From a virus (lineage: Duplodnaviria; Caudoviricetes), in IMG/VR virus record IMGVR_UViG_3300020037_004820: DNA of 64,000 nucleotides. One strand, written 5' to 3'. This document shows, piece after piece, positions 3-44,116 of the stretch; the first letter of the stretch is position 1; each line of letters starts with the position of its first letter. A program made the position numbers and the translations under genes. Under the pieces are notes generated by a model, which saw nothing but the letters and a program-made list of their open reading frames with translations, searched no databases and was not told where the DNA came from.

Positions 3-845
3 TATACATCACAAAGCTATTATAAAAAATCATTTTCTATGAGAGGTACTCAATATTGGTACAGTCGTCCTTGTATCGAAGTAAGATGGCAAGATGCCCA
101 ATTTGACGACAGAAACAATTCCTACATAAGTGCAGCATATGCTCCGGGTTCCGACAACTTGAACACCCTCTATTTGTACAATAAGGTAAGAGGGCAGCTT
201 GTTGACATTCCAAGCGTTGGACAAGGAAACATTTATGTCTCATTGTTTACTGGAAATGTAGCAACTCAAAGTGCATATAATTCAAATGCTACCGGAACTT
301 GGGTATCGACGGGTATATATAGAGCACAATTTTATTCTACATTTACAGGTACATTATATGATTTTTGGCATAATAACAGTCCTGTACAAATACCAACCAC
401 TGTTTTCTTCTCGTCTTCTATTAAAATGAAAAATTTCTTAGAAGATTACCATACAAATAATGATGAATTTATTTTATCTATGCCAAATATTCGGGACTTT
501 TATCATATGAATGATAAAGTTAGATTAGATTTATCTATAAGAAAACGTGCATGGAAAGCTAATATTTATACAACAATGACACAAGAACAAACAAGAGAAT
601 ATATCAAAAAAGCGTATTACCAAATAAGAAGAAGTTTAGATTCAAAAATAGTCATAGATTATGGAACTGGATCTACATATCATACCTTGTTATCATATGA
701 TAAAGATGGAAATTATTTCAATTTGAATATGAACTTGTTTGAACCAGATTATCAATACGAAATATCTTATATTTTCGATATTGAAGGTAAAAAAACTCTT
801 CAAAAAGATAAATTCAAGTTTAGAGTTCAAAGAGAAATTGTTTGA
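3..845 (+). CDS. Virion structural protein (baseplate/tail-associated), 5'-truncated by the window edge
   Basis: Frame is open from nt 3 (YTSQSYYKKSFS-MRGT...), so the ATG at 39 is probably internal; beta-rich; heads the structural cluster. Confidence 0.55.
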   Translation, partial: YTSQSYYKKSFSMRGTQYWYSRPCIEVRWQDAQFDDRNNSYISAAYAPGSDNLNTLYLYNKVRGQLVDIPSVGQGNIYVSLFTGNVATQSAYNSNATGTWVSTGIYRAQFYSTFTGTLYDFWHNNSPVQIPTTVFFSSSIKMKNFLEDYHTNNDEFILSMPNIRDFYHMNDKVRLDLSIRKRAWKANIYTTMTQEQTREYIKKAYYQIRRSLDSKIVIDYGTGSTYHTLLSYDKDGNYFNLNMNLFEPDYQYEISYIFDIEGKKTLQKDKFKFRVQREIV

Positions 846-855
846 GGGTAAATAA

Positions 856-3800
856 GTGAGCATAAAAGAACTATTCGATTCTGAACAAAAAGTTGGAACA
901 GTGATTTCTAAAAAATCATTATCTGATCTTACATCTTCGTATTTAATACAAAGTCCAGGTGTATTATCTGCTTCATATACAAAATATGATCAATTACTTC
1001 CTCATATAGATTTTTCAAGACCAGAGAATTTTGTAAAATACGGGTCGGCTGAAAAGTATTATTCTGCTTCTATTTCTAGAATTGTATATACTTTTCCGTA
1101 TGATGGGTCTAAAAGAGAGAAGCTTAATTGGAGAAATAGCTCTTCTTATTTAGATAATTATCTTTTTGATGAAGAATACCCAAAACATACAGGATCTATA
1201 ACTATAGGAACAAGTTTTGGAACAGCGTCTGTTAATAGCAGCGGGTATTATACTACGCCAGGAAGACTGGAGTATATTAAAGTAGGACCAGGGTTATCTT
1301 ATGGATCTATATATTCGTCCTCAGACAGAAACTCAGCTTTATCGTTTAATAGTGAAAATGGATTTTGTATTGAATTTTGGATGAAACAAGATCCTTGGAG
1401 TGCAGATATAGCAACTGCATCATATCAATGTATTTTTGACATTGGTGCCCGAGTAGCCGATATTACTTCTTCTTTAGCCTTTGCTAATCCTGCAAGCGGG
1501 TATAGAATTTCTGTTGTTGCAACAGGTACAACTTTAGCATTATTATCAGATGATGGAAATGCCGATTCAACTTTGAATTTTTACAATGCGTTTTCAGCAT
1601 CACAATGGAATCAATTTGCATTAAATGTATTTTCAGGTGGCTCTGTAGATATATGGAAAAATGGTATTAAACAAATTTCATCATCTTCTCTTGATTACGG
1701 AACTTTTTGTGAATGGCCCTATATTCCTGTCGATTTAAGGTTTAGTGGAACTATTGGAGCTTTTTCTAGTATTCCAGGCACATGGTTGGATGGAAATGTA
1801 CAATTAGGATGGAATAAATTTTCAGGTTCTATTGATGATTTTAGATTTTGGAGACGTTCAAGAACAGATAAGGAACTTGCATCAAATTGGTTCCACAGTG
1901 TTGATGGAGGATATGAAACTGATACTGAATTAAATCCAGATATGGGATTTTACTATAAATTCAACGAATATACAACAGGAACAGGTTCGATAGATGCAAC
2001 AGTATTAGATTACTCTGGTAGAAAAAATAACGGTCAATGGATTGGATATTTATCTGGTGCTAGAAGTTCAATAGGAGCAATGTCTAGCGAAGTTAAAGAT
2101 CCTATTCAATTTATCACGTCAGATATAGTTTCAAGTTTTATACAACAAAAATTATCTACAGGAAGCTATTACGATATCCATAATAATGGAGCTATCATAA
2201 ACAATCTACCTTCTTTTATATTAGAAGAAGACTCTAACAATCATTATGTAAATCTAACACAAATTATAGCTTCAATGTTTGATAGATTTTTTCTTCAAAT
2301 ACAGTCTTTAACTTCTCTAAAAGATTCTTCTTATTTTGCTTCTGGATCATTATCATCTGATATAATGCTTAAACTTATAAATTCTAATGGATTACGTTTA
2401 GACAATATTCTAAGTGATTACGATTTACAAGAAATTTTGCAACAAAAAGCCGATACATTTTTGTATGAAAATGATATTGAAAGAATTAAAGAAGTAATTT
2501 ACAAAAACATTTACAATAATTTGGTTTATATATTCAAAGCAAAAGGTACTGAAAAAGCTATTAAGGCTGTTTTTAGATCATTCGGTGTAGATGATGATGT
2601 ATTAAAAATTAAAGGATATGCTAAAGAAGGTGTTATAGAGATAGATGGATCTAAGAGAAAAGATACTGTTCGTAGAAAAAACTTTTTAGATTTATACGGA
2701 TATACTGATCCTAATAATATGAATGGTGTTGTGACTAATGCATATATACCTATTCAAAGTGCTTCATATGCATATTTAACCACTTCGTTAAGTTCTGTAG
2801 AAAAAGTAACAGATTCTTCTAATAAATCTTTAGAATGTTCTATTCTTTTTCCTAAAAAATTAGGATTATCTGATCCTAATCACGTATTTTTAAATCAAAA
2901 TCAATTATCTGCATCTCTATTTGGATTTTACGAGGTAGACCAATCTTTATCTCCTTCTTCTACCGATTTTACATGGCAAACAGGTGGCTATAAATTAAAT
3001 GTATATTCTGTGCAAAAAGATAGATATACTAAAGATGCTAAATTTGTATTTGTAATTTCGGGGTCTACTTTTTCTCAAATATACACTGAAACAATGTTTT
3101 ATCCAGATATCTATGATAATTCAAAATGGACATTTGCTTTTAGAACCTATCATAGTGCATCTAAAGATACTGGACTTATAAATACAGAAATAATTGCTTC
3201 TTCTCATATTAATACGGCAAGTATAGAGTTATATGGTGTTCAAGAAGAAGCTGGAGTTATTATACATTCATTTTCTTTTAGAACGGACATAGCGTATAAT
3301 GGAGTATCAGGAACTGCTACTAATAACCAATATTTATTAGGACAAAAAACTAAACTATATGTAGGAGCAAATAGAACAAACTTTACTGGAACAGTTCTCT
3401 ATCCAACTTATGCAAAATTTATAAATCTAAGATATTGGGATAACATCTTATCAGATGAAGATATTTTAAATCATGCTAAAGATGTTCATAATTTTGGTAT
3501 ACATAGTTCTTCTAGAAATTGGAAAAACTATATAAATTCTATTTGGGATAATCAACCTAGAGAATTTATTCCTAATGCAGAGACTCTATTAGTTAATTGG
3601 GATTTTGAAAACAATTATATACCGGATTCTAATGGGATATTTACTGTTTCCTCATTTAGTTCCGCATCTCAATATACAGCTAATAATATTCAAAGTAATC
3701 AGGAACTTAGAGTTGTAGGCAAGAATTATAGCGCAATAGGCTATGGATTCAATTCAGGTGCTATAGTAATTGATAAAAATTATGCAATAGAACAAAAGAA

Positions 3801-4311
3801 TAGAATTCCTACGGACTATTACGGCTACGATGATATATCATTATTAGATGATTCCGATAAGTATTTTGGAAGGTCTATAAGACCAATTGAATATTTCTAT
3901 ACTATTGAAAATTCTATATATGATGTTATATCTGAAGATATTTTAAATTTCTTTTCATCTATAGACGAGTTTAGCAATTTATATGGATATGCGATTGAAA
4001 GATATAGAACAGAGTATAAATTACTTAGACTTTTTAGAAATATCTTTTTCTCTAAAGTTGGAAATACATCTATAGATATAGATAAATATATTTCATATTA
4101 TAAATGGTTAGATGATGCGATTTCTTCAATAGTTTCTAAATTGTTGCCTGTATCAGCAAATGCAGATGCTAATATAAGAAATGTAATAGAATCTCACGTT
4201 TTGGAAAGAAATAAATATTTATGGAATGCTGAAATTGTAAGACAAAAGCTGATGCATGTAATAGAAGGTTCTGTTAAACCTATTCATTCAAAATTTAATG
4301 TAAACGGCTAA
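856..4311 (+). CDS. Large baseplate/tail structural protein with LamG (concanavalin A-like) domains
   Basis: 1151 aa; LamG-like signatures FCIEFWMK, WNQFALN, FSGSIDDFRFW and a second NLRYWDNILS; KAKGTEKAIKAVFRSFG resembles baseplate-wedge/tail protein I motifs; RBS GAGGG. Confidence 0.65.
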   Translation: MSIKELFDSEQKVGTVISKKSLSDLTSSYLIQSPGVLSASYTKYDQLLPHIDFSRPENFVKYGSAEKYYSASISRIVYTFPYDGSKREKLNWRNSSSYLDNYLFDEEYPKHTGSITIGTSFGTASVNSSGYYTTPGRLEYIKVGPGLSYGSIYSSSDRNSALSFNSENGFCIEFWMKQDPWSADIATASYQCIFDIGARVADITSSLAFANPASGYRISVVATGTTLALLSDDGNADSTLNFYNAFSASQWNQFALNVFSGGSVDIWKNGIKQISSSSLDYGTFCEWPYIPVDLRFSGTIGAFSSIPGTWLDGNVQLGWNKFSGSIDDFRFWRRSRTDKELASNWFHSVDGGYETDTELNPDMGFYYKFNEYTTGTGSIDATVLDYSGRKNNGQWIGYLSGARSSIGAMSSEVKDPIQFITSDIVSSFIQQKLSTGSYYDIHNNGAIINNLPSFILEEDSNNHYVNLTQIIASMFDRFFLQIQSLTSLKDSSYFASGSLSSDIMLKLINSNGLRLDNILSDYDLQEILQQKADTFLYENDIERIKEVIYKNIYNNLVYIFKAKGTEKAIKAVFRSFGVDDDVLKIKGYAKEGVIEIDGSKRKDTVRRKNFLDLYGYTDPNNMNGVVTNAYIPIQSASYAYLTTSLSSVEKVTDSSNKSLECSILFPKKLGLSDPNHVFLNQNQLSASLFGFYEVDQSLSPSSTDFTWQTGGYKLNVYSVQKDRYTKDAKFVFVISGSTFSQIYTETMFYPDIYDNSKWTFAFRTYHSASKDTGLINTEIIASSHINTASIELYGVQEEAGVIIHSFSFRTDIAYNGVSGTATNNQYLLGQKTKLYVGANRTNFTGTVLYPTYAKFINLRYWDNILSDEDILNHAKDVHNFGIHSSSRNWKNYINSIWDNQPREFIPNAETLLVNWDFENNYIPDSNGIFTVSSFSSASQYTANNIQSNQELRVVGKNYSAIGYGFNSGAIVIDKNYAIEQKNRIPTDYYGYDDISLLDDSDKYFGRSIRPIEYFYTIENSIYDVISEDILNFFSSIDEFSNLYGYAIERYRTEYKLLRLFRNIFFSKVGNTSIDIDKYISYYKWLDDAISSIVSKLLPVSANADANIRNVIESHVLERNKYLWNAEIVRQKLMHVIEGSVKPIHSKFNVNG

Positions 4312-4331: not shown

Positions 4332-7300
4332 ATGCCTTATACTGACCCAACTGAATCAATCTATAGAGTTTTAGGAGAATATTTACCTCATTATACAGGG
4401 AATATTTCCAATATATATAGAATTGCTAATGTTAAATTATCTGGATCGGTTTTTTATAACGACCAGAAAAATATTGTTTCCAAAAGTATAGGAAATTATC
4501 AAAATTCTTATGAAGTTGTAGAATCTACTGGACGAAGAGATAATAATTTATCTCTTCGTTTATATCCTCTATCTCAAAGCATTTCTATTATTAAACTTGA
4601 TGGGCAAGTTCCTTATACTATGCCTGCACGCCAGTTTAATAAAAACATAATTGCTGTAATCTTTAGTGCTCCAGGCGGAAGCGATGTTGATGCAAATGGG
4701 CAACGAGATCTTGAGGGACTAGAATATTCTTCAAATAATAACATAAATTTTAGAAATGCAATCGTTAGAAAAGATATTAACCAAGATTGGAGAACGCCCG
4801 AAACATCTTCGGCATATACTCGTCATAAGACAGATAAAAATACACATTATAGAATATCTCCAATTACCTTAACATTTGAAACCAAATCCGATAATGGATT
4901 TGTTACGCATTTTGTTCCTTATCATATTGATCAAATAGCTTGGCTATCTCAATCGCTTATGAAAACAGAGGTTCAGAAGAAAAGTCATTATATATATTTC
5001 AATGAACAAACGGGAAGTGAATATGTCTTTACTTCTAGTATGGTAGGAAGTGAATTATCTAATTCATTTGGATCAGATTATTGGAGCATATATGGCTATG
5101 TCCCTTGGATACAAACAAGAGCCAGTGAAAATTGGAGACATAGAGCATTAAAAAATAGATCATATTATTATGTTAATAGAAATGAAAATTCTCAAGAAGG
5201 AAAAAGAGGTGTAAGAGTTGATACAGGTTTATTTATACAATCTGGTACATTTGACTCATCCTCCGAAGGTATATTAATTTTTAAAGAACCTTTGTTGGAT
5301 TTTTCTAATCAGTTATCCTTTATAAAAGTTAAAGATAATATGAAAAAAGATATGATTATAAAGTCTCCTATATATAAATCTATATTCTTTAACGAAGAAT
5401 TGAATAATATATATGGAATAGAAGATTCTATAAAAGATAAAGATAGATTAGCTTCTTTCTTAGAAACACAATATTCTTATATAAAAGGTAAAAAATACCA
5501 AATATATCCTAATCCTAAAGTTGGAGGTTTTCTTAGAACTAGAAAACGTGAAAATTTTATATTTAAAGCATGGAAAGATGATTCATTTAGAACACAATCT
5601 CAAGTATATGGAGGGGCAACTCCAAATGCGGATAATACACGACAAGTTAGAAATTCTGCTATAAAAGGTTACACTGTTCCTAGTTTATATGATTTTAATT
5701 TAACAGGATCTATATGGCCTCTGGATCAATATATTCATCCTACAATGTTTTTGACAGGAAATAGAAGAGTTCAAGGTGAGTTAATGATGACTGTAGGACA
5801 GGATAGTATAGCTGAGCAAGTTTTAACTGTTCAAAGATCTTATATGCCAGTAGTTAGTTATAGATATACAGAAAATACAAATCCTATAAGTGTATTACCT
5901 TGGACGGCATATAGAGCGGCAAAATCGACTCCTTTTAAGGACTCAGAGGATGTATATTCTTTACATACTTCTAGAAAATATTTAAGTTATGGTGTTGTTC
6001 CTGAATTCAATGTGTCTCAGCAAATTACAAGTGGTAATTTTACCCAATTAACAAAATATCTAACTGATAATTCATTTGTATTTATGAATACAGGTTCTTA
6101 TACTGTAAATAAACTAACAGATACATATTCTGTAAAAGATACTTTGCAATTCAATATAAATGCTGTTATACAAACTAGACCTTATGATAATTTTTATCCA
6201 TGTCAATATACATTGGAATGTGCTAAACAATTTTCTGCATCTTTATCAAAAGTTAGTAGTTATAACGCTGCTTTATCAAATTATGTAGGAAGTGGATCTG
6301 CTTTATTATTTGCAATGTTTCCATTTTTTAATCCTGGAATATTATATGCATCTATTAAAGCAGGATTGCCTATGTCTTTCAATTTTAATTCAAATTTAAC
6401 ATCTGGAGACATTTGTGAATTTGAAGAAATTTTTGATCCTTCACGTTTCTTGTTAGAATATACAATCCAAAACAATCATTTTACAGAAACATTGTCTGTG
6501 GATCTATATAAAAATGCAATCCTTAATTTCATGGAAGAAGTTCGATATACATTTTGTAAAAATAATAGTTTAGAATATTTTGAATCAAATAACGATGTAG
6601 ATTTTAAAGTGTTCACATCTGGAACAAATTATATATTAGATGTGGTTTTAGATACAGGGAAATTAGATTTCAGTTCTAGTAATATTTCACAATACGGAAA
6701 AGCTATTATAGGTGGAGTAAATTATATAGGATATTCCCATAATTTATATCCTGCAAATATTCCTCCATGGTGGCCTGGGAATGAAACATCTAATGCAAGT
6801 ATAGGAACTAAAGTTGCTAGAATTTCATTCACTCCAACACTTACTAGAAAATATACTTTAGATGAAATTTTCGCATTATCTTCTGTAACTTTTCATAAGA
6901 GATTAACAGATACAATATCTGTTCCACAATCTTATACAAAGTTAACATCTTCGTTTAATTTATTCGAGAAATCAACGGATAATGATGGAAATAGTAAATG
7001 GAAGATAAAATCTAAATGGGAATTTCCATTTTTAGCTTTAACAGGTGCTATGGATCATTTTAGCAGCGCTTTAACGACTAGACCTATAGAAAATACTTGG
7101 AGTAATAACACAGTAGAATATGCCGGTGGATTATGGCATGATTTTTGTGAAGTTCCGTCTTCTGAACAAGGAATATTTTTATCTCTAAAGGATTTTAATT
7201 ATATATCAGGTAGTACTGCTCTTAAATCTGCTTCTTTGGCAAGACAAGTTGGATTTGATATAAATAAGAAAAAACGAGTTGGGGAATTGAATACACAAAA

Positions 7301-7808
7301 AGAAATTTCTGAATTAATATGTATAGTTCCAATTAATAAACAAGATGATACATTTTTTATCATTAATACACCTATTATGTCTAAAAGTTTATCTACAGAA
7401 TCTGCTTCTATATCTACAACATATCATGAAAATATAGAATTTGCAAAACGTTATATTTTGCCACCAAAATTGGACTATACAATCTCTGGAAACAAACCTA
7501 TTTTAATGTTTTGTACAGAAATATCCGACGTGTGGTCTAAACGAGATTTGTCTTATATATGGCAAAATCTTTTGCCACAAAACGGATTAGATCATAAAGA
7601 GAAATCATTAATTTATGAAGTTAAAGATCAAAAAGATTTAGATATGTTAAAGAATAAAGAGATTTACTTTATGATATTTAAATGTAAACAACGTTCTATA
7701 TCTAATCCTCTAGGTTCATATGGGTACAATTGGCCATTTGATATGTGCAGTCTTGTGGAATTGGCACAAATTGAAATGGTTACAGAAGAAATAGGGATAA
7801 ATACATAA
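4332..7808 (+). CDS. Large virion structural protein (tail/baseplate-associated)
   Basis: 1158 aa, S/T/G-rich, within the structural cluster; C-terminal YGYNWPFDMCSLVEL. Confidence 0.5.
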   Translation: MPYTDPTESIYRVLGEYLPHYTGNISNIYRIANVKLSGSVFYNDQKNIVSKSIGNYQNSYEVVESTGRRDNNLSLRLYPLSQSISIIKLDGQVPYTMPARQFNKNIIAVIFSAPGGSDVDANGQRDLEGLEYSSNNNINFRNAIVRKDINQDWRTPETSSAYTRHKTDKNTHYRISPITLTFETKSDNGFVTHFVPYHIDQIAWLSQSLMKTEVQKKSHYIYFNEQTGSEYVFTSSMVGSELSNSFGSDYWSIYGYVPWIQTRASENWRHRALKNRSYYYVNRNENSQEGKRGVRVDTGLFIQSGTFDSSSEGILIFKEPLLDFSNQLSFIKVKDNMKKDMIIKSPIYKSIFFNEELNNIYGIEDSIKDKDRLASFLETQYSYIKGKKYQIYPNPKVGGFLRTRKRENFIFKAWKDDSFRTQSQVYGGATPNADNTRQVRNSAIKGYTVPSLYDFNLTGSIWPLDQYIHPTMFLTGNRRVQGELMMTVGQDSIAEQVLTVQRSYMPVVSYRYTENTNPISVLPWTAYRAAKSTPFKDSEDVYSLHTSRKYLSYGVVPEFNVSQQITSGNFTQLTKYLTDNSFVFMNTGSYTVNKLTDTYSVKDTLQFNINAVIQTRPYDNFYPCQYTLECAKQFSASLSKVSSYNAALSNYVGSGSALLFAMFPFFNPGILYASIKAGLPMSFNFNSNLTSGDICEFEEIFDPSRFLLEYTIQNNHFTETLSVDLYKNAILNFMEEVRYTFCKNNSLEYFESNNDVDFKVFTSGTNYILDVVLDTGKLDFSSSNISQYGKAIIGGVNYIGYSHNLYPANIPPWWPGNETSNASIGTKVARISFTPTLTRKYTLDEIFALSSVTFHKRLTDTISVPQSYTKLTSSFNLFEKSTDNDGNSKWKIKSKWEFPFLALTGAMDHFSSALTTRPIENTWSNNTVEYAGGLWHDFCEVPSSEQGIFLSLKDFNYISGSTALKSASLARQVGFDINKKKRVGELNTQKEISELICIVPINKQDDTFFIINTPIMSKSLSTESASISTTYHENIEFAKRYILPPKLDYTISGNKPILMFCTEISDVWSKRDLSYIWQNLLPQNGLDHKEKSLIYEVKDQKDLDMLKNKEIYFMIFKCKQRSISNPLGSYGYNWPFDMCSLVELAQIEMVTEEIGINT

Positions 7809-8620
7809 TGGAATTGTTTAATAAATTAGAAGATGTTATATCTTTTGTGCTAACTGGATATGGTAAAGAACAATTAGCCACAGGAACGTTCAATCCTGTA
7901 TATTACGCTTTTTCTGATTCGGATATCTTGTACGATACGAGTTATGCTCCAGTAAGTCCACAAGGTTCTTATCCTGTCAGTTCTAGTCAAAATAGAACAA
8001 TAGAGGATTTAGCTAAAAAAGATAGACCTAAACCTAGCACTTTTCCATCTGTGTCTGAGAACGATTTCGGGGATAATTTTTATAAAGCCGGATTAGTGGG
8101 AACTTCAGAATATGGGAATAACTTATATCCAGCATTTGAAGTAAAACTATATGATGGACAAATATCCGGGTCATATTATTATAGTGGAACATTTTTGAAC
8201 CAAAATATACCTACTATAAATGTAAATATTCAATGTAAATACGATCCAGATACTAAAACATTTAAAAAACACGAAACATTATTTTTAGAGATAAATGAAT
8301 TAAATGGCTTATTTGAAAAAGAAAATTTTGAATATAGCATACTACAACGTTATGACCCTATAGTCCGAACAGGTCCAGTTCCTTTATTTCTATATGTTCC
8401 TGATAAATTATTAGAATTTGTAGATAGAGAAGAAGATTTAGAAAATCAAGAGTTTCCTCCTTTACAAATAGATACAGATTCTCTATCTAATGATAAAGTA
8501 GAATATTGGTTTGATATTGATGTGGACGATAAAATAATTGAACTTTTAGATTTCGAATTATCTGATTCTAATATTTATCTAAGACCTGAAAATATAGAAC
8601 CTAGACCGGAGAATTGTTAA
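7808..8620 (+). CDS. Virion structural protein, N-terminal paralog of 15841..16737
   Basis: VLTGYGKEQLATG..YYAFSDSDILY parallels VLTDAGRQRLARG..KFALADSEIDY; TAATG coupling. Confidence 0.5.
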   Translation: MELFNKLEDVISFVLTGYGKEQLATGTFNPVYYAFSDSDILYDTSYAPVSPQGSYPVSSSQNRTIEDLAKKDRPKPSTFPSVSENDFGDNFYKAGLVGTSEYGNNLYPAFEVKLYDGQISGSYYYSGTFLNQNIPTINVNIQCKYDPDTKTFKKHETLFLEINELNGLFEKENFEYSILQRYDPIVRTGPVPLFLYVPDKLLEFVDREEDLENQEFPPLQIDTDSLSNDKVEYWFDIDVDDKIIELLDFELSDSNIYLRPENIEPRPENC

Positions 8621-11614: not shown

Positions 11615-14600
11615 ATGAAAATAAGAAAATACCTTTTTAGAGATCATTACAAAGTATCAACAGATAAATTTAGAGATATTCTAGGTTTATACCATGATTA
11701 TAAAAATCAAAATCTAACAGATTTATCTAATCCTATAAAAGAAATTTTTAATCATTCTATATTTTCAATATCTGATGCAGTTATTGTAGATGAAGATCAA
11801 GGTTTATACAAACAAAATGTAACTTTTAAACCAACAAATTTAGATTCAAATCAAAGATTTTTGAATCAAGAATATAGACAAAGATCAATTGAGGAATTAG
11901 ATCAAAATTTAATTCCAAGACGTGTGGATTTTCAACAAGGAGGAAATGGTTTTATATATACCACACCTGCTCCCATTGAAGGACCTGGGGAGTTAAATAC
12001 AACTACTCAAACATCTAATAATACTTCTCCAATTGAGGTAACTGTTCCTTTAGATCCCGTTATTCCTATTTCTGGTAAAACTAATAGAGAAGTTATAGTT
12101 GATACTATTAGAAGCAATAAACATTACGAAGATATAAATACTATAGTAGATGAAGTGACTGATTTAAAAATAGGAACAGATGATTCCTATGTAAATATTG
12201 AATCTAAATACAATTTTTTCATACCAAAATACGAAGAACAGATACAATCTAATTTAATTCCTGAAGAAATTTTACCGAACTTTTATGTTGTTAGTTTAGC
12301 TCTAAATCAAGATATCTTAAATTCTATATCACAAGATGATTACAATTCTTCTTTAGCGTTAGGAAACACATCTCCTTATGAAAATCTTAATAAAAAATTT
12401 GATAAATTTATCACATTAGATGGAAACCTATCATTAGATAGAAATGGGGATATCGGGTTCTTTTTTGCTCTTGCCTTAGTAGCTTATATGGAACAATACG
12501 CGGAAGTGTATGATTCAGTATCTGTAGATTATATAGAAACTGTTAAGAAAAGATTTGGACATTTATTTAATAATTTAACTAATAAAGAAATTTTAGATAA
12601 ATTGAATGAATTTAAAAGCTCATATCCTTTATATATTAATATAGAATGGACAACTACAACATTAAGTCCTTTACTTGTCTTTCTACAAAATGCAGGAATA
12701 TCTTTGCAAGCATTACAAAGTTTTCTTGGAGACAAATTGCTTATCAAAATACAATCTTCTGGTTTATCAGAAGTTTCAAGGTTTTCTATTTTAGCACAAT
12801 CTCCTAGATTAGATTTCACAACAGGTTTAGGGCATTTTGAGGAATATTCTCAGAATCTATATACATATGATGCAGGTCAATGGATTATCGACTTTTTGCT
12901 TGAGATCTTCGCAGGGACAAGCAATGAAATAATTCACCCTAATGAGTTGCTGGTTATTGACCAAAATGGGCAAGAGATTCCGATCACTGACCAGTTTGAC
13001 CCGACGAGGGGCGCTATTGATATTTACGAAATACTCAACGCAATATCTGCTATACCTGGGTATCGGGATTTACTTAATACCTCTATACGAACGTATAAGC
13101 AACTTATAGAGGGAGATTTTGCTAAGTCGGAAGTTTTGCTATACAAAATAGAAAAAAGAAATTCACAACATGTGTTACTTCAAACATTTTATATACCTAA
13201 TGTTTCTGGAATAAATGTGCAAAATTATGTAGATACTCAAGTTAAGTATAATAAAGAATATAAATACAAAATATTTGCGTATACAGCAATTTATGGTACA
13301 GAATATTATTATTCAAGATTTCAATCTGAAACAGATGATACACATTACTATAGAGCTGGTGAAGGGCATTTATCGATTGATACAAATATTAGTTTAGGAA
13401 TGTCTAACAAAAAAGTAAAGCAACCTATTAAAGAAAATTCTATAGTAGGATATTTTAGAGTTTTATCTGCGGACGAAGGGCATCAACTATTCGATATATT
13501 TATGAACACTTCTATAGCAGGTTCTGATCAATTTACATTAGGCTTTTTTGGCGATACAACTAGTTTAAACGTAGATAATTTATTAATCAATAAATGGTAT
13601 CATTTTTCTATTGTATCTAAAAAAGTAAAATCAATAGAAGGTATATCTTTTATAAGAGAATTATACATAGACGCTAGATTAGCAGGATCTGTTATTGCAG
13701 ATCCTATAGTAGAATTTAAAAATAGAATATTAATACCAGGATATGCGCCCTCTGCAACAGATCCTCTATTTGATCCCTTTGGAAGTTTTGGGAATTATTC
13801 CACAGTTACTCGTGATATGAGTAACATAGCAGTTTTCGATAGAGCACTAGAATATTCAGAAATAAAATCCTTAAAAAATCTAGGAAGATGTTGGGATATT
13901 AGAAAATCTAAAAAAGGTATACCTCCTTTGAATATAAATGATTGGACTGGAGAGGTTCCTTCATTTTATTGGCGTAAAAAAGCTATATATAATGTAGTTA
14001 CAAATGATGGATTTGCAGGCGAAGCTAACTTGGTTCTACATGGAGATGCAGTTTCTATAAAATGCGACGACAATTCTATACCAGATGATTCTAAAAAAGA
14101 AACATTTGAACCAAGAAATATAGAACCTAGAGATATAATACCTCCTTTATTCGAAGAATATCCTGTATATGGAGAAACAGATTCTTTAACTCCTGTTGAT
14201 CCTTTTATAATTGAACCACAAGAGCCATTTAAGGGATCAACAGGAGTTCCTGAATTTTTAGACATAGGTATACCATATGAACCTCCGGGTGTTCCAGGGT
14301 ATGGAGAAGTATTTATTCCTCCAGAAGAACCTCCTTTTATTCCACAAGAATCTCCTCCTGATTTTATAAAACAAGAGGTATATATTCCTACACCTACTGT
14401 TCCTACTGTTCCAATAACAGTTCCTGGTAAAAAATATATACCTGTAATATCTGTAGGAGGAGATACAACTCCTCCAGTTCAACCTGCTCAACCTTCTACT
14501 ACATCAGGGTATGCAGAAGTATTTATTGCACCAGATGCTTCTACACCAACTGTTAGAGTAGTTCCAACAGTTATTCCAAATATGCCTAGTGTTCCTGATA

Positions 14601-29226: not shown

Positions 29227-29229
29227 CTT

Positions 29230-35898: not shown

Positions 35899-37614
35899 AT
35901 GGATGATTTTCTAAAAGTAATAATGGATAGCGATGTTATCGAATCCAGATTAGATAAAGACAATAAGCTTGTTGAAAAATGGGGCAAGTATGGTTTCCTT
36001 AAGGGGATCACTGACGACAACAAGAAAAGAACTATAGCTCGTTTGTTTGAGAACCAAAAGAATCAAATGAAGAGACAAATTGTGCTAGAGCAAACCTCTA
36101 TGGCAGGAGGTGATGTTCAAGGGTTTGCAGCGGTTTCTATGCCGATTATTCGAAGAGTCTTCGGTAACTTAATCGGAGCTTCTGAAGTTGTATCTGTACA
36201 ATCTCTTGATCAGCCTGTTGGTCTTATATTCGTATTAGACTTCACTGCTGGAACAAATAAAGGTGGAATGGGTCTTGCTCAAAACGCTTCTATTTATGGT
36301 CAAGGTAGAGTTGGTGCACAGATTCTGAGCGGAGCTGATTTATCAGGTATCAACGCAGAAACTGGTTTCACTGCTCTTAACCAAGGTTATACACAACCTT
36401 CTGGATCTGTTACCATGGTTGCTGCAACTACTTTCGGGTCGTTCTTAGCATCTGGTACAGTTGGTGGAATTGATAATACTTTAGATAGATGGGTAAGATT
36501 TGATCAAGATTTATCTGGATCTTTCGTTGCCGTGTTGACTGCTTCTAAAGGATTGTTCCCACAATTGTTAGAAAAATCTTATATGGCGATTGCTGACTCT
36601 TCTACAACTTCTGGAACTTTGGTTAAGAGATTAATCCAAGAATACGCTCCAGATCCTACAAAAGTTGTATTGATTTACTCTGGTGCATCTCTTGGTGCTC
36701 TGAATGAATTAACAAATACAGCTAACCTTCGTACATACAAATATCCTATCTATGACAACTTTGCATCTGTAAACGGTGTATATTCTGCCATACAAGGTAC
36801 AACTCCTTGGGGATTTGAATGGGACGGTTCTGCTGGACAAAACGGTGAAATTCCTGAAATCGACTTGAAAGTTGAAGCATTCAATATTCAAACTAACACT
36901 AGAATGTTGAGAGCAAAATGGACAGCGCAGGTTTCACAAGACTTAGCGGCATGGCAAAATATGGATGCAGAAGTGGAATTGACTTCTGTTCTTTCAGAAC
37001 AAGTTGCAATGGAAATTGACATGGAGGTTCTAAAGGACCTTGTTGAAGGTGGAAAAGCAACTGTTAGATACTGGTCACGTAGACCTGGACGTTTCGTTAC
37101 TCGTACAACGGGTGAAGTTATTCCTGCTGCGCAAACTGGTGACTTTACAGGTAACGTTGCAGAATGGTATCAGACCTTATTGGAAACAATAAACGATATC
37201 TCTGCACAGATTGCACGTAAGGTTCTAAGAGGTGGTGCAACTTTCCTTGTAACTTCTCCAGAAGTTCAATCGATTCTTGAATCTACAAATCAATGGTATG
37301 CTACAACTACGGTTGGAGAATCTGAGAAAGGTGGTCAAGCTGGATTGAAGAAAGAAGGTTCTGTTTCGAAGAAATGGGATGTTATGGTTAGCCCTTACTT
37401 CCTAAGAAACGTTATATTAGTTGGACGTAAAGGTTCTTCTAATCTAGAAACAGGATATGTATACGCTCCTTATGTTCCTCTTATCACTTCTCCTACAATT
37501 CCTAATCCAGATAACCTGTTTGTGTACAACAAGGGTGTTATGACAAGATATGGAAAGAAAATGATTAGACCAGATATGTACGCCTTGTGCATCATATTGA
37601 ATCTTGAAGGCTAA
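35899..37614 (+). CDS. Major capsid protein (T4 gp23-like)
   Basis: LVEKW, LFENQ, PIIRRVF, VSVQ..P.GLIF, TRMLRAKWT, DAEVEL..EIDMEVL, GYVYAPYVPL, GVMTRYG. Confidence 0.96.
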   Translation: MDDFLKVIMDSDVIESRLDKDNKLVEKWGKYGFLKGITDDNKKRTIARLFENQKNQMKRQIVLEQTSMAGGDVQGFAAVSMPIIRRVFGNLIGASEVVSVQSLDQPVGLIFVLDFTAGTNKGGMGLAQNASIYGQGRVGAQILSGADLSGINAETGFTALNQGYTQPSGSVTMVAATTFGSFLASGTVGGIDNTLDRWVRFDQDLSGSFVAVLTASKGLFPQLLEKSYMAIADSSTTSGTLVKRLIQEYAPDPTKVVLIYSGASLGALNELTNTANLRTYKYPIYDNFASVNGVYSAIQGTTPWGFEWDGSAGQNGEIPEIDLKVEAFNIQTNTRMLRAKWTAQVSQDLAAWQNMDAEVELTSVLSEQVAMEIDMEVLKDLVEGGKATVRYWSRRPGRFVTRTTGEVIPAAQTGDFTGNVAEWYQTLLETINDISAQIARKVLRGGATFLVTSPEVQSILESTNQWYATTTVGESEKGGQAGLKKEGSVSKKWDVMVSPYFLRNVILVGRKGSSNLETGYVYAPYVPLITSPTIPNPDNLFVYNKGVMTRYGKKMIRPDMYALCIILNLEG

Positions 37615-38577: not shown

Positions 38578-39819
38578 ATGTCTACAGTATATCTCGATCC
38601 AACAAGTCAATTGTCTAGTAAAAAGTTACCACCAACTGGAACTTATACCAATGTGTTAACCATGTTACCAGATTTGGTATATACATCTAGTGCATTCATA
38701 ACAGGTGCAGTAAATGCTGTTGCTTTAGCATATGATTTTTATGCAGGTAACATTTTAGATATAGAACTTGAGGAGAGAAACTGCTATAGATATTATCAAA
38801 TGGCTGTATTAAAATACTCATATTTACTTAATACCCATCATGCAAAAAATATATTGTATGAAATGTTAGGTTTTCAAACTGCAACTTTTAATGCAAATGG
38901 TACAATATCTGTTGGTCAAGATCTTTCTCTTAAAAATCCCAATTTTTCACTTGCTTATGCAAGAAATATGGGAGCAGCTTTTGGAGGAGAAATAGGCGTA
39001 GGAGGATATATACCAACCTATTCAGCTTCTTTTCAAGCTGTAAATGAACAACAAGATTATGATTTACAAGAGTTGATAGGAAATTCAGCAGAGTTTAGCG
39101 GAATTGTACAAGGAAAACGACTTATAGTTAAAGAAGTTTTCTTTAAAACTCCTTATACTGGTTGGACATTTTTTGGAGGCATGGGAAGTTATGGATCTGT
39201 TGCAGGATACAGTTCTTACAATGGATATGCAAATAGATCAACTTTTCAAGTTACCCCTGTTTGGGAAGATAAATTACGTTTAGCTAACTTTGAAGATGCT
39301 ATAACAACTAGAACATCTAACTTTTCTTACGAATTGATTAACAATAAATTGCGTTTATATCCAATACCTAGAGCCCATGCATACGGTGCGCCATCTAAAT
39401 ATTGGATTAGATTTTCAATTGATGATAGTCCTTTATCAGCTTCTAATGGTATAACAACTTCCTCTATAGAAGGTATAAATAACTTGAACACGCTACCGCT
39501 AGGTAATTTACCTGTAGAGAATATCAATGGTCCAGGTCATCAGTGGATCAAAGAATACTTCCTTGCATTATGTGCAAAAGCCCTTGCATTAGTTAGAGGA
39601 AAATTTGGGTCTATACCTTTACATGGTGGAAGAAATATAACCTTGAATAGTGCTGATTTATTATCTACTGGAAAAGAAGATCTTAAAGATTTGGAAGAAA
39701 AATTAATTAAATTATTAGATGATATGGTTCGTCCAGAATTGGCAAAGAAGAAACAAGAGCAAATAGAAGCAAATACTGCTATTTTAGCTAATGTTCCTTT
39801 GTTTATCCATGTGAGATAA
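38578..39819 (+). CDS. Neck/head-tail adaptor protein (T4 gp13-like)
   Basis: ILDIEL, QQDYDL, NKLRLYPIP, QWIKEYFLALC..L..VRGKF..IP...ITLN..DL. Confidence 0.8.
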   Translation: MSTVYLDPTSQLSSKKLPPTGTYTNVLTMLPDLVYTSSAFITGAVNAVALAYDFYAGNILDIELEERNCYRYYQMAVLKYSYLLNTHHAKNILYEMLGFQTATFNANGTISVGQDLSLKNPNFSLAYARNMGAAFGGEIGVGGYIPTYSASFQAVNEQQDYDLQELIGNSAEFSGIVQGKRLIVKEVFFKTPYTGWTFFGGMGSYGSVAGYSSYNGYANRSTFQVTPVWEDKLRLANFEDAITTRTSNFSYELINNKLRLYPIPRAHAYGAPSKYWIRFSIDDSPLSASNGITTSSIEGINNLNTLPLGNLPVENINGPGHQWIKEYFLALCAKALALVRGKFGSIPLHGGRNITLNSADLLSTGKEDLKDLEEKLIKLLDDMVRPELAKKKQEQIEANTAILANVPLFIHVR

Positions 39820-41144: not shown

Positions 41145-41170
41145 AGATGTATAAATTGGAGATAACTTAG

Positions 41171-44116
41171 ATGTCAGAAAAACAATATAAAGCAGTTAGC
41201 CCGGGAGTAGAGATTAGAGAAATTGATCAGTCTCAACTTCCTGCCGTTTTTGATGAGCAAGGTCCAGTTGTAATTGGACGTGCGGAACGTGGACCGGCAA
41301 TGGTTCCCGTTAAAGTCAATTCTTATTCAGAATTTGTTGAATTTTTCGGCAATCCTAATGGAAATCTTGCTCTAACGGACGTATGGAGAGAGAAAGTAAC
41401 TATTGGTCCTTCTTATGGAGCTTTAGCTGCGCAAGCATCTTTAGCAAATAAAAGCGCTTTAACTTTCGTTCGTTTGTTAGGAACACAAAATGATGAAGCA
41501 ACTTCTGCGGGTAGAGCAGGATGGGGAGTTGGTGGAGATGGAGATGCAGAAAACCTTTCTTATAACGTAAGAGAAGGTGGAGCATATGGTCTATATCTGA
41601 TTCCTTCTGTTACATTGCCTGCAACAGTTGCAACAGGGACACTTGCAGCAGTATTTTACCTAAATACTGGTTCTATAATGCTTAAAGGACAATTATATGG
41701 AGCATCTGGCGCATATAGTTCAATTTCTGGGTCTGCTGTATTAATTGAATCCGATACCAATAAACAATTCAGAGCCTTGATAAAGAATGCTTCTGGTGTA
41801 ACCGTTGAAGACGTTACATTTGGTATGGATAAATCTGGCGATAAATTCATCCGTAAAGTATTCAATACGAATCCTACAAAAATTAACTCTGCTTTGTATA
41901 CTTCCCCTAAGACATACTTTTTAGGAGAAACCTTCGAAGACTTTATTTATAATGCTGATGAAATGTCAGGTATGCGTGATTCTACAAGATGGGTAGGTGT
42001 TATCTTAGGATTGAAGAACAATTCTACAGGAGATACTCTGTCTAGCAGAAGAATTCCTTCTCAACACGGTAGAACAGGATGGTTCTTCTCTCAACACTTA
42101 GGAAATAACGCAAACTTTGAAATCGATAACGTTCAAAAATTATTCAAAATACACTCTCGTGATTCTGGAGAATGGAATCAAGCTCATATCAAAATTTCTA
42201 TAAGAAATGTAGAAGCAAGTACAAATGTCTACAATCCTTACGGAACCTTTGACGTTGTTATAAGAAAAATTGACGACTCTGATCAAAACATTGTAATCAT
42301 TGAACAATTCAATGGATGCGATTTGAATCCTCAATCTGAAAATTATCTAGCAAAGAAAATTGGTGACAAATATATTGTATACAGCACTTCTGATCGTAGA
42401 AATATAGAATATGGAGATTATGATAATCAATCAAGATATATCAGAGTTGAAATAAATGAAGATGTAGCAGTTGGAGCAACTGTTCCTGAATTGCTTCCAT
42501 TCGGTGTATATGGACCTGTGAAATTTAGAGATTTCTCTTTCTCATCGGGATCTATTGGAAACGATTTGGGTATGTCTGGTTCTATGTTTGGAGAATATGA
42601 AAGAGCTGCAACTGGTGCAACTTATCCGAACTATGCTGCGGCATTCGTTATAGGTGGAACTTCTATTGCAGATTCTGCTGTAAATGCATTATCTGGAACT
42701 GGTCCTGTAGTATTCGGTGCTGGACCATCTGGTGCTGTTTCAACAACAATCAAGACTGCTGCTATTCTAATGCCTTTCCCAAGACTTAGAGTTTCAACAC
42801 TTACAGGTGCATTAGGTAATCCTAAGAATGCATACTTCGGAGTATTCACAGATAATACATCTGATACTTTCCAAAAATCTGTAAGAGATTTAACAAATGT
42901 TATGCCAAGAGGTGTAGATTCTTTTGCACCTGATTCTGCGGAAGGAACAGCTTATTCATGGAAGTTCACTTTAGATGATTTGAAGTATGTATCTGGTGGA
43001 GAAACTGATGTTCAATGGTCATCTGGTTCTAGATTAGCTGGAACATCAATAACATCTATCGGTTCAAATGGATGGAACTCTGTACTGACAGGTGGTTGGG
43101 ATTCTTTCACAACATTATTAGCAGGTGGATTTGACGGATGGGATATTACTGAAATCGAACCATTGAGAAATGATGCGATGGCAGGAGCAACCGAAAAGAC
43201 AAATTATGCATATAATACAATAAACAGAGCTATAGAGCTTCTACAATATCCTGAGTTAGTAGAATTCAACGTTGCTGCAATCCCTGGTGTAAATAAAGCA
43301 GGGTTGACAAGAAGACTGATTGAAGTCTGCTCACAAAGAGGAGACGCCTTAGCGGTTATAGATTTGGAAAATGATTATAAGCCACGTTCAGAAAATTCTC
43401 TTCCAGAATCGTCTAGAAGACCTATTGTGTCAACTGCAATTAGTGCATTGAAAGATAGAGCATTCAATACGAACTATGGTTGTGCATATTTCCCATGGGT
43501 ACAAGGTATTGATCCAAACTCTAACATTCTTACATATCTTCCTCCTTCGGTTATTGCATTAGGAGCATTTGCTTATACAGATAGAGTAGCTGGTTCACAC
43601 CATGCTCCTGCTGGATTTAGTAGAGGTTCGTTGTCCCAAGGACACGGTGGAATACCTGTAAAAGATGTAACATTGAAATTATTGCAAAAAGATCGTGATG
43701 ATCTATATAAAGCAAATATCAATCCCATCTCTTTCCTTGAAAGAGAAGTGGTTATCATGGGACAAAAAACTCTACAAGTTATTCCATCTGCATTGGATCG
43801 TATAAGTGTAAGAAGAGGTCTATTAGATCTTAGAAAGAAATTCTCTAAGATTGCGTCTAGACTTATCTTTGAACCTAACGTCCAAGATACTTGGAACAGA
43901 TTCAAAAATCAAGCAGAACCTGTATTGAGAGATATGGTTACTAAATTAGGATTAGATGACTGGAGACTTATATTGGATAGTAGAACAACTACTCCTGATT
44001 TGATAGATAGAAATATCATCTATGCAAAAGTTTACTTAAAACCAACTCGCGCAGCAGAATTCTTCTATCTTGACTTTAATATAAGTAATTCAGGTGCCGC
44101 TTTTGCGGAAGTGTAA
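41171..44116 (+). CDS. Contractile tail sheath protein
   Basis: SPGVEIREIDQS, GRAERGP, YFPWV, LPPS, APAGFSRG, LYKANINPI, RISVRR, FEPN, KPTRAAEF. Confidence 0.96.
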   Translation: MSEKQYKAVSPGVEIREIDQSQLPAVFDEQGPVVIGRAERGPAMVPVKVNSYSEFVEFFGNPNGNLALTDVWREKVTIGPSYGALAAQASLANKSALTFVRLLGTQNDEATSAGRAGWGVGGDGDAENLSYNVREGGAYGLYLIPSVTLPATVATGTLAAVFYLNTGSIMLKGQLYGASGAYSSISGSAVLIESDTNKQFRALIKNASGVTVEDVTFGMDKSGDKFIRKVFNTNPTKINSALYTSPKTYFLGETFEDFIYNADEMSGMRDSTRWVGVILGLKNNSTGDTLSSRRIPSQHGRTGWFFSQHLGNNANFEIDNVQKLFKIHSRDSGEWNQAHIKISIRNVEASTNVYNPYGTFDVVIRKIDDSDQNIVIIEQFNGCDLNPQSENYLAKKIGDKYIVYSTSDRRNIEYGDYDNQSRYIRVEINEDVAVGATVPELLPFGVYGPVKFRDFSFSSGSIGNDLGMSGSMFGEYERAATGATYPNYAAAFVIGGTSIADSAVNALSGTGPVVFGAGPSGAVSTTIKTAAILMPFPRLRVSTLTGALGNPKNAYFGVFTDNTSDTFQKSVRDLTNVMPRGVDSFAPDSAEGTAYSWKFTLDDLKYVSGGETDVQWSSGSRLAGTSITSIGSNGWNSVLTGGWDSFTTLLAGGFDGWDITEIEPLRNDAMAGATEKTNYAYNTINRAIELLQYPELVEFNVAAIPGVNKAGLTRRLIEVCSQRGDALAVIDLENDYKPRSENSLPESSRRPIVSTAISALKDRAFNTNYGCAYFPWVQGIDPNSNILTYLPPSVIALGAFAYTDRVAGSHHAPAGFSRGSLSQGHGGIPVKDVTLKLLQKDRDDLYKANINPISFLEREVVIMGQKTLQVIPSALDRISVRRGLLDLRKKFSKIASRLIFEPNVQDTWNRFKNQAEPVLRDMVTKLGLDDWRLILDSRTTTPDLIDRNIIYAKVYLKPTRAAEFFYLDFNISNSGAAFAEV

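What the first reader, a model, noticed from the sequence alone, without database searches (positions are those of the whole stretch)
3..44116. Virion proteins are studded with a [ST]-[GAS]-[ST] tripeptide, a possible modification sequon
Seen: TGS/SGS/SAS/TGT/SGT/SSS/TAS, often flanked by hydrophobic residues, occurs more than 20 times by eye in 856..4311 (HTGSI, FSGSI, FSGTI, ISGST, STGSY, ASGSL, QSASY, FTGTV). It is also dense in 4332..7808, 16751..17803 (LTGTIISGTL, ITGSI, LTGSI), the capsid insertion region (PSGSV, ASGTV, LSGSF, TSGTL) and the sheath (NTGSI, ISGSA, MSGSM). It is rare in terminase, portal, RecA, helicase and exonuclease. Known: some phages glycosylate capsid and tail proteins. 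Inference: one short motif spread across unrelated folds may be a surface sequon for O-glycosylation or another virion modification.
Basis: partly seen in the sequence, partly recalled or inferred. Interest (0 to 1): 0.7.

Follow-up and report, generated by a model that had tools for sequence, protein, structure and literature searches.

The report
Hydroxyl-small-hydroxyl tag on outer virion proteins
The outward-facing tail, baseplate, sheath and capsid domains of this uncultured marine T4-like phage and its relatives carry the tripeptide Ser/Thr-Gly/Ala/Ser-Ser/Thr three to five times more often than chance, which most likely marks sugar-attachment sites for the lineage's own conserved sugar-transferase genes, though no chemistry has been shown.

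Summary
In an unbiased scan of all reduced tripeptides, [ST]-[GA]-[ST] is by far the top outlier in six baseplate and fibre-module proteins (53 vs 12.5, z 12). The rest of the window sits at expectation (35 vs 34.4). The excess depends on residue order, survives local shuffles, and lies in the protein sequence, not the DNA.

In this window the sheath and capsid are not significant alone. Pooled over five orthologous genomes they are, and only in their outer domains.

- T4 shows no excess.
- Positions drift between homologues while the density is kept.
- The centre swaps between G, A and S.
- Turn-equivalent variants with Asn or Asp are not enriched.

All 13 large relatives and three cultured relatives (Flavobacterium phage immuto, Microcystis phage Mel-JY01, Rhodothermus phage RM378) carry an orthologous GT4 sugar-transferase. 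In one uncultured relative and in immuto it sits in a sugar-nucleotide gene cluster. Immuto DNA carries no sugar.

Best reading, at about 0.45: these are acceptor sites for phage-encoded O-glycosylation of the virion surface. The main rival is a lineage-specific folding idiom.

Earlier notes of this scan describe the same kind of tag on other phage DNA (e1-5644671 and others); they are leads, not evidence. I could not read this genome's own upstream sugar cluster.

The parts
3..845 (+). C-terminal part of the baseplate protein that follows the gp25-like and gp6-like genes in relatives; motif-rich
   Evidence: [ST][GA][ST] 3 vs 0.7. Orthologues in G001 and G005 have 10 vs 2.7 and 10 vs 3.4. Gene order comes from L003.
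856..4311 (+). 1151-aa peripheral baseplate protein with a LamG/ConA/pentraxin-like jelly-roll domain; the main carrier of the motif (30 sites)
   Evidence: 22 vs 5.7 under local shuffles. Weak Pfam Laminin_G_3 match. AlphaFold2 model with Foldseek matches to LamG and pentraxin folds. Site turnover in alignment A2.
4332..7808 (+). 1158-aa baseplate or fibre protein, motif-rich (16 sites)
   Evidence: 11 vs 3.8, p 0.0005. The G005 orthologue has 11 vs 4.0.
7808..8620 (+). 270-aa protein of the same module, motif-rich
   Evidence: 4 vs 0.6; 3 vs 0.5 under local shuffles, p 0.006.
16751..17803 (+). 350-aa strongly conserved virion-module protein; highest site density (13 sites), most of them nearly invariant in 41 homologues
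   Evidence: AlphaFold2 model with pLDDT 76 and no clear fold match.
18236..19477 (+). 413-aa protein of the baseplate/fibre module, motif-rich
   Evidence: 9 vs 3.4; 6 vs 1.5 under local shuffles. Orthologues have z 4.8 and 5.1.
36226..36786 (+). Insertion domain (residues 110-296) of the gp23-type major capsid protein (gene 35899-37614); all six capsid sites lie here
   Evidence: Pfam Gp23. 5 vs 1.5, p 0.017. Pooled over five orthologues, the insertion has 22 vs 9.0 and the core 6 vs 5.9.
38578..39819 (+). 413-aa head/neck-region protein; borderline excess here, consistent across orthologues
   Evidence: 6 vs 1.9. Pooled orthologues 20 vs 7.3. Weak PHROG match to head-tail adaptor.
41468..43465 (+). 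Non-conserved middle (outer) domains, residues 100-765, of the tail sheath (gene 41171-44116); all seven sheath sites lie here
   Evidence: Sheath assignment. Not significant alone. Pooled over orthologues, the outer region has 52 vs 19.5 and the core 5 vs 4.4.
11615..14836 (+). 1073-aa protein of the same module without the motif (internal contrast)
   Evidence: 1 vs 4.0.
27538..31398 (+). Large terminase and portal: zero sites, as their composition predicts (contrast)
44143..44730 (+). Tail tube protein: beta-rich but internal, no sites here or in two orthologues (contrast)

Best explanation
The tripeptide, best written hydrophobic-[S/T]-[G/A/S]-[S>T]-hydrophobic, is a recognition tag on the outward-facing domains of the virion. 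Its most likely reader is the lineage's own cytoplasmic sugar-transferase system.

Inferred mechanism: a sugar-nucleotide pathway (4,6-dehydratase, aminotransferase, methyltransferase) makes a modified deoxy-amino-sugar. The conserved pair of GT4 transferases, with accessory transferases, puts it on a Ser/Thr hydroxyl of the tag in baseplate-periphery, fibre, sheath-outer and capsid-insertion domains, before or during assembly. The result would be a sugar-coated particle.

Shown here: the statistics of the tag, its restriction to outer domains, its positional turnover, and the presence and conservation of the enzymes in relatives.

Inferred only: that the enzymes act on these proteins at these sites.
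For: 1. Among all reduced tripeptides, [ST][GA][ST] is the single extreme outlier in six proteins (53 vs 12.5, z 12.1). Next come its own extensions with a hydrophobic flank. The rest of the window is at 35 vs 34.4.
2. Codons at the sites follow general usage (60 distinct 9-mers among 76 sites), so selection acts on the protein.
3. The carrier proteins share no detectable similarity and have no internal repeats.
4. In T4, gp6-12, gp34-37, gp18 and gp23 show no excess of [ST][GA][ST]; only the wider pattern, with Ser also allowed at the centre, is mildly high in gp18 and gp48.
5. The same orthologous set is enriched in two complete relatives and in the cultured phages immuto and Mel-JY01. RM378 also shows an excess.
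6. Within the sheath and capsid proteins only the outer domains are enriched (2.67x and 2.46x). The cores are not (1.14x and 1.02x).
7. Positions turn over. In 40 homologues of 856-4311, 196 columns hold a site, 88 of them in one sequence only. After the 11 conserved columns are masked, the private sites are still 2.2x enriched in the median sequence, and above the shuffle mean in all 40. The sheath and capsid show the same drift.
8. The centre interchanges between G, A and S within conserved columns, and is no better conserved than other G/A. Position 3 is almost always Ser.
9. [ST]G[ND], [ND]G[ST] and [ND]G[ND] are at expectation, while [ST]G[ST] is 3.6-4.7x.
10. 13 of 13 large relatives carry 2-3 GT4 genes. 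In G001 they sit in an operon-like cluster with a dehydratase, an aminotransferase and a methyltransferase, about 3 kb upstream of the baseplate block. Immuto has a very similar annotated cluster.
11. In 50,697 phage records this GT4 occurs only in the far-T4 set, whose hosts span Rhodothermus, Flavobacterium and Microcystis. That argues for a target belonging to the phage itself.
12. Immuto DNA shows canonical dA, dC and dT plus fdPreQ1, with no sugar adduct reported (PMC10516641). No ThyA-type hydroxymethylase was found in the 13 relatives.
13. Both GT4 proteins match the chlorovirus-encoded transferase B736L, PDB 3oy2.
Against: - No chemical evidence exists for any of these phages.
- The enzyme and the motif co-occur in one lineage only, so the association is a single evolutionary event.
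- I could not read this genome's own upstream region.
- The hydrophobic flanks, and several sites with an invariant Gly in the 350-aa protein, fit a folding role.
- Side-chain exposure could not be computed, because only DSSP strings were available. A few sites fall in predicted helices.
- Weak excesses (1.3-1.4x, 1-3 proteins each) also occur in cyanophages and a pelagiphage that lack this GT4.
- Most characterised GT4 enzymes act on sugar or lipid acceptors.
Confidence: 0.45

Rival explanations
1. A lineage-specific folding idiom. The tag is a preferred way to end or link beta-strands, or to cap helices, in the beta-sandwich and jelly-roll domains that decorate these virions. It has no reader and carries no modification.
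For: Positions -2, -1 and +1 around the tag are hydrophobic. Many Gly-centred sites sit at predicted strand ends. Several sites in the 350-aa protein are invariant, including the Gly. Outer domains are beta-rich, and some fibre proteins of unrelated marine phages show a weaker excess.
Against: T4 baseplate and fibre proteins show none. The beta-rich tube, and large neighbours such as 11615-14836, show none. Variants with Asn or Asp, which from general knowledge of turn statistics should serve equally well beside a turn glycine, are not enriched. The centre swaps between G, A and S. Secondary-structure context is mixed and not tied to strand ends (p 0.34). Positions drift while density is kept.
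Confidence: 0.3
2. The tag is read by some other trans-acting factor. This could be a different modification (phosphorylation, phosphoglycerol or phosphocholine, acylation), an assembly chaperone, or a host enzyme. The sugar cluster would then serve another purpose.
For: The statistics require only a reader, not a sugar.
Against: No kinase or other modifying enzyme turned up in the parts of the window I scanned. The only conserved lineage-specific enzymes found next to the virion genes are sugar enzymes.
Confidence: 0.15
3. The sugar cluster modifies phage DNA or the host envelope, and the motif is unrelated to it.
For: Phage transferases related to LPS and teichoic-acid enzymes glycosylate 5hmC in DNA, and such clusters can lie near structural genes (bioRxiv 10.1101/2023.12.21.572611). 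One GT4 also matches Pfam 'GT4-conflict'.
Against: There is no ThyA-type hydroxymethylase in the 13 relatives. The Tet/JBP search found nothing but its control did not ring, so it is inconclusive. Immuto DNA has canonical C and T. The same GT4 is kept in phages of very different hosts, which argues against a host-glycan target.
Confidence: 0.08
4. Chance or a composition artefact.
For: The motif was chosen by eye. Sheath and capsid in this window alone are not significant.
Against: The motif is the top outlier of an unbiased scan, at z 12. It passes the residue-order test and local shuffles. It replicates in six other genomes and in 240 homologues.
Confidence: 0.02

Closest known systems
Mycobacteriophage virion glycosylation (Freeman et al. 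2023, Cell Host Microbe; known here only through citation in PMC12582341, and from my own knowledge)
   Same: Phage-encoded glycosyltransferases are thought to decorate the phage's own virion proteins in the cytoplasm.
   Different: From my own knowledge, glycans there sit on Ser/Thr-rich C-terminal extensions of the capsid and tail-tube subunits of siphoviruses. Here the candidate sites are a short internal tag scattered over outer domains of many proteins of a T4-like myovirus. The enzymes are a GT4 pair with a deoxy-amino-sugar pathway. Nothing has been shown chemically.
Bacterial autotransporter heptosyltransferases Aah/TibC acting on AIDA-I and TibA
   Same: Cytoplasmic O-glycosylation of many Ser residues. 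[quoted passage not shown] The modified TibA peptides contain SAS, NSGG and VSGT (PMC4358343). The hydrophobic-tag-hydrophobic layout here resembles that.
   Different: The phage enzymes found here are Glycos_transf_1 (GT4) proteins; from my own knowledge the heptosyltransferases are a different enzyme family. No heptose pathway was seen.
Virus-encoded glycosylation machinery of chloroviruses and other giant viruses (review PMC9614988, listed; B736L structure 3oy2)
   Same: The virus carries its own sugar-nucleotide enzymes and transferases and, from my own knowledge, glycosylates its capsid at atypical sequons independently of the host. Both phage GT4 proteins match B736L.
   Different: Those are eukaryotic viruses and, from my own knowledge, mostly use N-linked glycans. 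The sequence similarity is weak (E 1e-7 and 5e-4).
Phage DNA sugar-hypermodification gene clusters (bioRxiv 10.1101/2023.12.21.572611)
   Same: Clusters of transferases recruited from LPS or teichoic-acid enzymes, sometimes next to structural genes.
   Different: Those depend on a 5-hydroxymethylpyrimidine-forming enzyme, which was not found here. DNA of the cultured relative immuto has unmodified C and T.

Membership tests
Protein O-glycosylation acceptor motif (sequon) served by a virus-encoded transferase | Motif over-represented beyond composition and residue order in the substrate proteins | tested here: met
Protein O-glycosylation acceptor motif (sequon) served by a virus-encoded transferase | Dedicated transferase genes in the same genome | tested here: inconclusive
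Present in 13 of 13 large relatives and in immuto, Mel-JY01 and RM378.
Protein O-glycosylation acceptor motif (sequon) served by a virus-encoded transferase | Sites lie on solvent-exposed surfaces of the assembled particle | tested here: inconclusive
   At domain level the feature is met: only the sheath outer domains and the capsid insertion are enriched, and internal proteins are not. At residue level, 16 of 28 confident sites are in coil, but side-chain exposure could not be computed.
Protein O-glycosylation acceptor motif (sequon) served by a virus-encoded transferase | Glycan mass on the Ser/Thr of the motif | not testable with these tools
   Needs virion glycoproteomics.
Structural glycine beta-turn | Central glycine is required and better conserved than other glycines | tested here: not met
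   G/A in the motif is conserved at 0.48, against 0.49 for other G/A, in alignment A2. G, A and S interchange within conserved columns, although a few columns are Gly-only.
Structural glycine beta-turn | Turn-equivalent neighbours (Asn, Asp) are enriched as well | tested here: not met
   [ST]G[ND], [ND]G[ST] and [ND]G[ND] are at 0.4-1.5x in three protein sets. That Asn and Asp are favoured beside turn glycines is my own knowledge of turn statistics.
Structural glycine beta-turn | One fixed secondary-structure context | tested here: not met
   Coil, strand edge and helix all occur. Sites are not tied to strand ends (p 0.34 and 0.37). Model quality is moderate (pLDDT 66 and 76).
DNA sugar-hypermodification cluster (for the transferase genes) | Enzyme that makes a hydroxymethyl-pyrimidine acceptor | tested here: inconclusive
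   PF00303 is absent from the 13 relatives, and its control rang in 10 of 14 genomes. PF12851 found nothing, but its control rang nowhere.
DNA sugar-hypermodification cluster (for the transferase genes) | Glycosylated nucleosides in virion DNA | not testable with these tools
   Published LC-MS of the cultured relative immuto reports dA, dC, dT and fdPreQ1 only (PMC10516641).
T4-like (far-T4) myovirus structural module | gp23-type capsid, gp20 portal, T4-type terminase, sheath, tube and gp21-type protease | tested here: met
   The nearest capsid proteins are in LR756508, Mel-JY01, immuto and RM378.

The most novel reading that the evidence does not exclude
A whole lineage of T4-related phages coats the outside of its virions with a phage-made deoxy-amino-sugar. 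The lineage runs from thermophilic Rhodothermus phage RM378 through Flavobacterium and Microcystis phages to abundant uncultured marine phages and a 484-kb megaphage. The sugar is attached at a simple tag, hydrophobic-[S/T]-[G/A/S]-S-hydrophobic, which selection keeps at constant density while individual sites come and go. This would resemble the glycan shields of animal viruses.
Probability: 0.4. Interest if true: 0.8.

Novelty: new variant of a known kind. Interest (0 to 1): 0.62.

Why it matters
Virion glycosylation in phages is documented for mycobacteriophages. If it is also a core trait of an abundant marine and freshwater lineage of T4-related phages, then sugar coats would become a general feature of phage particles. 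That has consequences for adsorption, particle stability, grazing and aggregation in seawater, and for how receptor-binding proteins are read from sequence.

The tag would also give a simple sequence rule for predicting which proteins and domains face outward. Three cultured relatives make the idea directly testable: immuto, Mel-JY01 and RM378.

Even if no sugar is attached, a short motif with drifting positions and conserved density in non-homologous proteins still needs an explanation.

Tried and rejected
- **DNA-level motif:** rejected, because codon usage at the sites equals general usage.
- **Internal repeats or shared domains among the carriers:** none found by BLASTP.
- **Periodic spacing:** none.
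- **Fold of the 350-aa protein:** no convincing match with Foldseek or VIA-align (best Z 4.2).
- **Gapped motifs such as [ST]-G-x-T, reported in earlier notes for other phages:** not enriched here.
- **T4 late-promoter consensus TATAAATA:** at chance in the window, so it could not be used to time expression.
- **This genome's upstream region:** not reached.
- **An independent lineage carrying the same GT4, to break the phylogenetic confound:** none in the phage collection.
- **An 805-aa frame in Mel-JY01 with 114 sites:** it conflicts with the deposited annotation, so I did not use it.
- **The paper on mycobacteriophage glycosylation:** not held in the library.
Full report
**What the window is.** All genes lie on the + strand, and G+C is about 30%. 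Assignments by family search:

| Coordinates | Assignment |
|---|---|
| 21488-22513 | primase-like protein |
| 22575-25547 | SbcCD |
| 27538-29226 | T4-type large terminase |
| 29230-31398 | gp20 portal |
| 33323-33955 | gp21-type prohead protease |
| 35899-37614 | gp23 capsid protein |
| 41171-44116 | tail sheath |
| 44143-44730 | tail tube |
| 55977-57128 | RecA |
| 57303-58355 | 5'-3' exonuclease |
| 58339-59733 | DnaB helicase |
| 60883-63009 | class II ribonucleotide reductase |

The left 20 kb has almost no family matches. Gene order in relatives places it directly after the hub, gp25-like and gp6-like baseplate genes. The window's own contig is 221 kb. The nearest capsid proteins belong to an uncultured 484-kb phage (LR756508), Microcystis phage Mel-JY01, Flavobacterium phage immuto and Rhodothermus phage RM378. 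These form a far-T4 group. Homologues of the window's proteins are very common in marine metagenomes.

Against whole-protein shuffles, [ST][GAS][ST] is in excess as follows:

| Gene | Observed vs expected |
|---|---|
| 856-4311 | 30 vs 9.1 |
| 4332-7808 | 16 vs 7.3 |
| 7808-8620 | 4 vs 0.6 |
| 16751-17803 | 13 vs 4.1 |
| 18236-19477 | 9 vs 3.4 |
| 3-845 | 4 vs 1.3 (marginal) |
| 38578-39819 | 6 vs 1.9 (marginal) |

- Because the motif was picked by eye, I scanned all reduced-alphabet tripeptides without prior choice. [ST][GA][ST] is the single extreme outlier in these proteins (53 vs 12.5, z 12.1). The next two are the same motif with a hydrophobic flank. In the other 49 proteins it is 35 vs 34.4.
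- The three permutations of the same residues differ sharply: [ST]G[ST] 34, G[ST][ST] 8, [ST][ST]G 12. So local composition cannot be the cause.
- Shuffles within 12-residue blocks agree.
- Codons at the sites follow general usage, so the signal is in the protein, not the DNA.
- Positions -2, -1 and +1 around the tripeptide are enriched in hydrophobic residues. There is no periodicity.
- The carrier proteins share no detectable similarity and have no internal repeats.

**What is not confirmed.** In this window the sheath (p about 0.2-0.4) and the whole capsid protein (p 0.08-0.24) are not above chance. Several large proteins of the same module have no excess, for example 11615-14836 with 1 vs 4.0. 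The rarity in the replication and packaging enzymes is simply what their composition predicts.

**Comparative picture.**
- T4 baseplate, fibre, sheath and capsid proteins show no excess of [ST][GA][ST]. With Ser also allowed at the centre, gp18 and gp48 are mildly high (z 2.6 and 2.1).
- Cyanophages S-PM2 and P-SSM2 and pelagiphage HTVC008M show only a weak general excess (1.3-1.4x) and one to three enriched proteins each.
- Two near-complete uncultured relatives (G001 and G005), immuto, Mel-JY01 and RM378 are clearly enriched. In the relatives with detectable orthologues, the same orthologous proteins carry the excess.
- All 240 database homologues of two of the families keep it, with a median observed/expected of 2.6-2.7.
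- Pooled over five genomes, the sheath (57 vs 23.5) and the capsid protein (29 vs 13.6) are enriched as well. Terminase, portal, tube and SbcCD are not.
- Within the sheath and capsid proteins the excess is confined to the non-conserved outer domains. Sheath outer is 52 vs 19.5 and core 5 vs 4.4. Capsid insertion is 22 vs 9.0 and core 6 vs 5.9. Each region was shuffled on its own.

**Behaviour in evolution.**
- In the strongly conserved 350-aa protein, most sites are nearly invariant.
- In the 856-4311 family only 11 alignment columns hold the motif in at least half of 40 sequences. In all, 196 columns hold it somewhere, and 88 hold it in one sequence only.
- After the conserved columns are masked, the remaining sites are still 2.2x enriched in the median sequence (median z 3.2), and above the shuffle mean in all 40.
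- The sheath (35 positions, 23 unique to one genome) and the capsid (19 positions, 13 unique) behave the same way.
- Density is therefore kept while positions drift.

**Anatomy of the tag.**
- Within conserved columns the centre swaps between G, A and S (for example A22 G14 S5). The first position is T or S, the third is almost always S, and both neighbours are hydrophobic.
- The central G/A is no better conserved than other G/A.
- The top exact tripeptides are SAS, TGS and TGT in the window. They are TGS (39 vs 5.2) and SGS in G001 and G005, and SGS (62 vs 10.6) and TGS in immuto and Mel-JY01.
- Only the form with a hydroxyl residue on both sides is enriched. [ST]G[ND], [ND]G[ST] and [ND]G[ND], and Gly next to charged or hydrophobic residues, are all at expectation in three independent protein sets.
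- On AlphaFold2 models (pLDDT 76 and 66), confident sites lie mostly in coil (16 of 28). Some are in helices and few inside strands. They are not significantly tied to strand ends.
- The 1151-aa protein contains LamG/ConA/pentraxin-like jelly rolls.
- These features fit poorly with a generic glycine turn. They fit better with something that recognises two hydroxyls separated by a small residue.

**The enzymes.**
I could not read that DNA, so I tested relatives instead.
- All 13 large relatives carry two or three GT4 genes, and 10 also carry a GT2.
- In G001 the genes run in this order: PD-(D/E)XK nuclease, GT4, GT4, Glyco_trans_1_2, FkbM methyltransferase, 4,6-dehydratase, DegT aminotransferase. 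Several start and stop codons overlap. The cluster ends about 3 kb before the baseplate block.
- Immuto has a very similar cluster in its deposited annotation.
- Among 50,697 phage records this GT4 has homologues only in LR756508, immuto, Mel-JY01 and RM378. It is therefore a signature gene of the lineage, kept across hosts as different as Rhodothermus, Flavobacterium and Microcystis. That argues for a target belonging to the phage rather than a host glycan.
- DNA is an unlikely target. No ThyA-type hydroxymethylase is present in the 13 relatives. Published LC-MS of immuto DNA found canonical dA, dC and dT plus fdPreQ1 in place of dG (PMC10516641).
- Both GT4 proteins match the chlorovirus transferase B736L.

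**Interpretation.** A shared short motif with all of these properties is most simply explained by a trans-acting reader:
- it occurs in non-homologous proteins;
- it is restricted to outward-facing domains;
- it is absent from T4;
- its density is kept while positions drift;
- it needs two hydroxyls around a small residue.

The only lineage-specific enzymes found next to the virion genes are sugar enzymes with no other evident substrate. I therefore rate O-glycosylation of the virion surface as the best explanation, at about 0.45.

[quoted passage not shown] The closest biological precedents are mycobacteriophage virion glycosylation and giant-virus glycosylation.

The main rival, at about 0.3, is a lineage-specific folding idiom of surface domains. 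The hydrophobic flanks and the invariant-Gly sites favour it.

Weak points of the best explanation: the enzyme-motif association is one phylogenetic event, exposure was judged only by domain, and no chemistry exists. Earlier notes of this scan describe similar tags in other phages. They agree with this reading, but they are AI notes and not independent evidence.

Noticed in passing
window 34646-34654, 35862-35870, 38246-38254; G001 and G005 (loci L099-L117): A promoter-like word, (A)ACTATTTA(T/A), lies 11-87 nt (mostly 20-40) upstream of the scaffold, capsid and other virion genes. It occurs in 10 and 18 upstream gaps of G001 and G005, against 1.3 and 1.7 expected. In G005 it also precedes gene 90159, which heads the gene run leading into the transferase cluster. 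The T4 late consensus TATAAATA is at chance.
   Followed up: partly
window 16751-17803 (residues 57-62, 77-82, 248-253): The 350-aa protein contains the longer word L-S-S-S-A-N three times. The first copy is nearly invariant in 41 homologues. The protein has thousands of metagenomic homologues but no fold match.
   Followed up: partly
window 11615-14836: This 1073-aa protein sits in the middle of the motif-rich module and has fewer sites than expected (1 vs 4.0). It has no family match and only a partial homologue in G005. It may be internal to the particle or not a virion protein.
   Followed up: no
Flavobacterium phage immuto and Microcystis phage Mel-JY01 fibre-like proteins (loci L120-L137): A second strongly over-represented word, (Y)SHAEG (HAE 10 vs 0.2), appears in the enriched fibre and spike proteins of the cultured relatives but not in the window.
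   Followed up: no
L138 (Mel-JY01 635-3052): An 805-aa open frame on the + strand holds 114 motif sites. It overlaps a deposited minus-strand CDS (739-2298). One of the two readings is probably wrong. A 1227-aa protein with an FkbM methyltransferase annotation and a GT1 domain lies just downstream.
   Followed up: partly
G001 64040-64870; immuto 47964-48905: A PD-(D/E)XK nuclease gene directly precedes the GT4 pair in both an uncultured marine relative and immuto. The neighbourhood is therefore conserved and unexplained.
   Followed up: no
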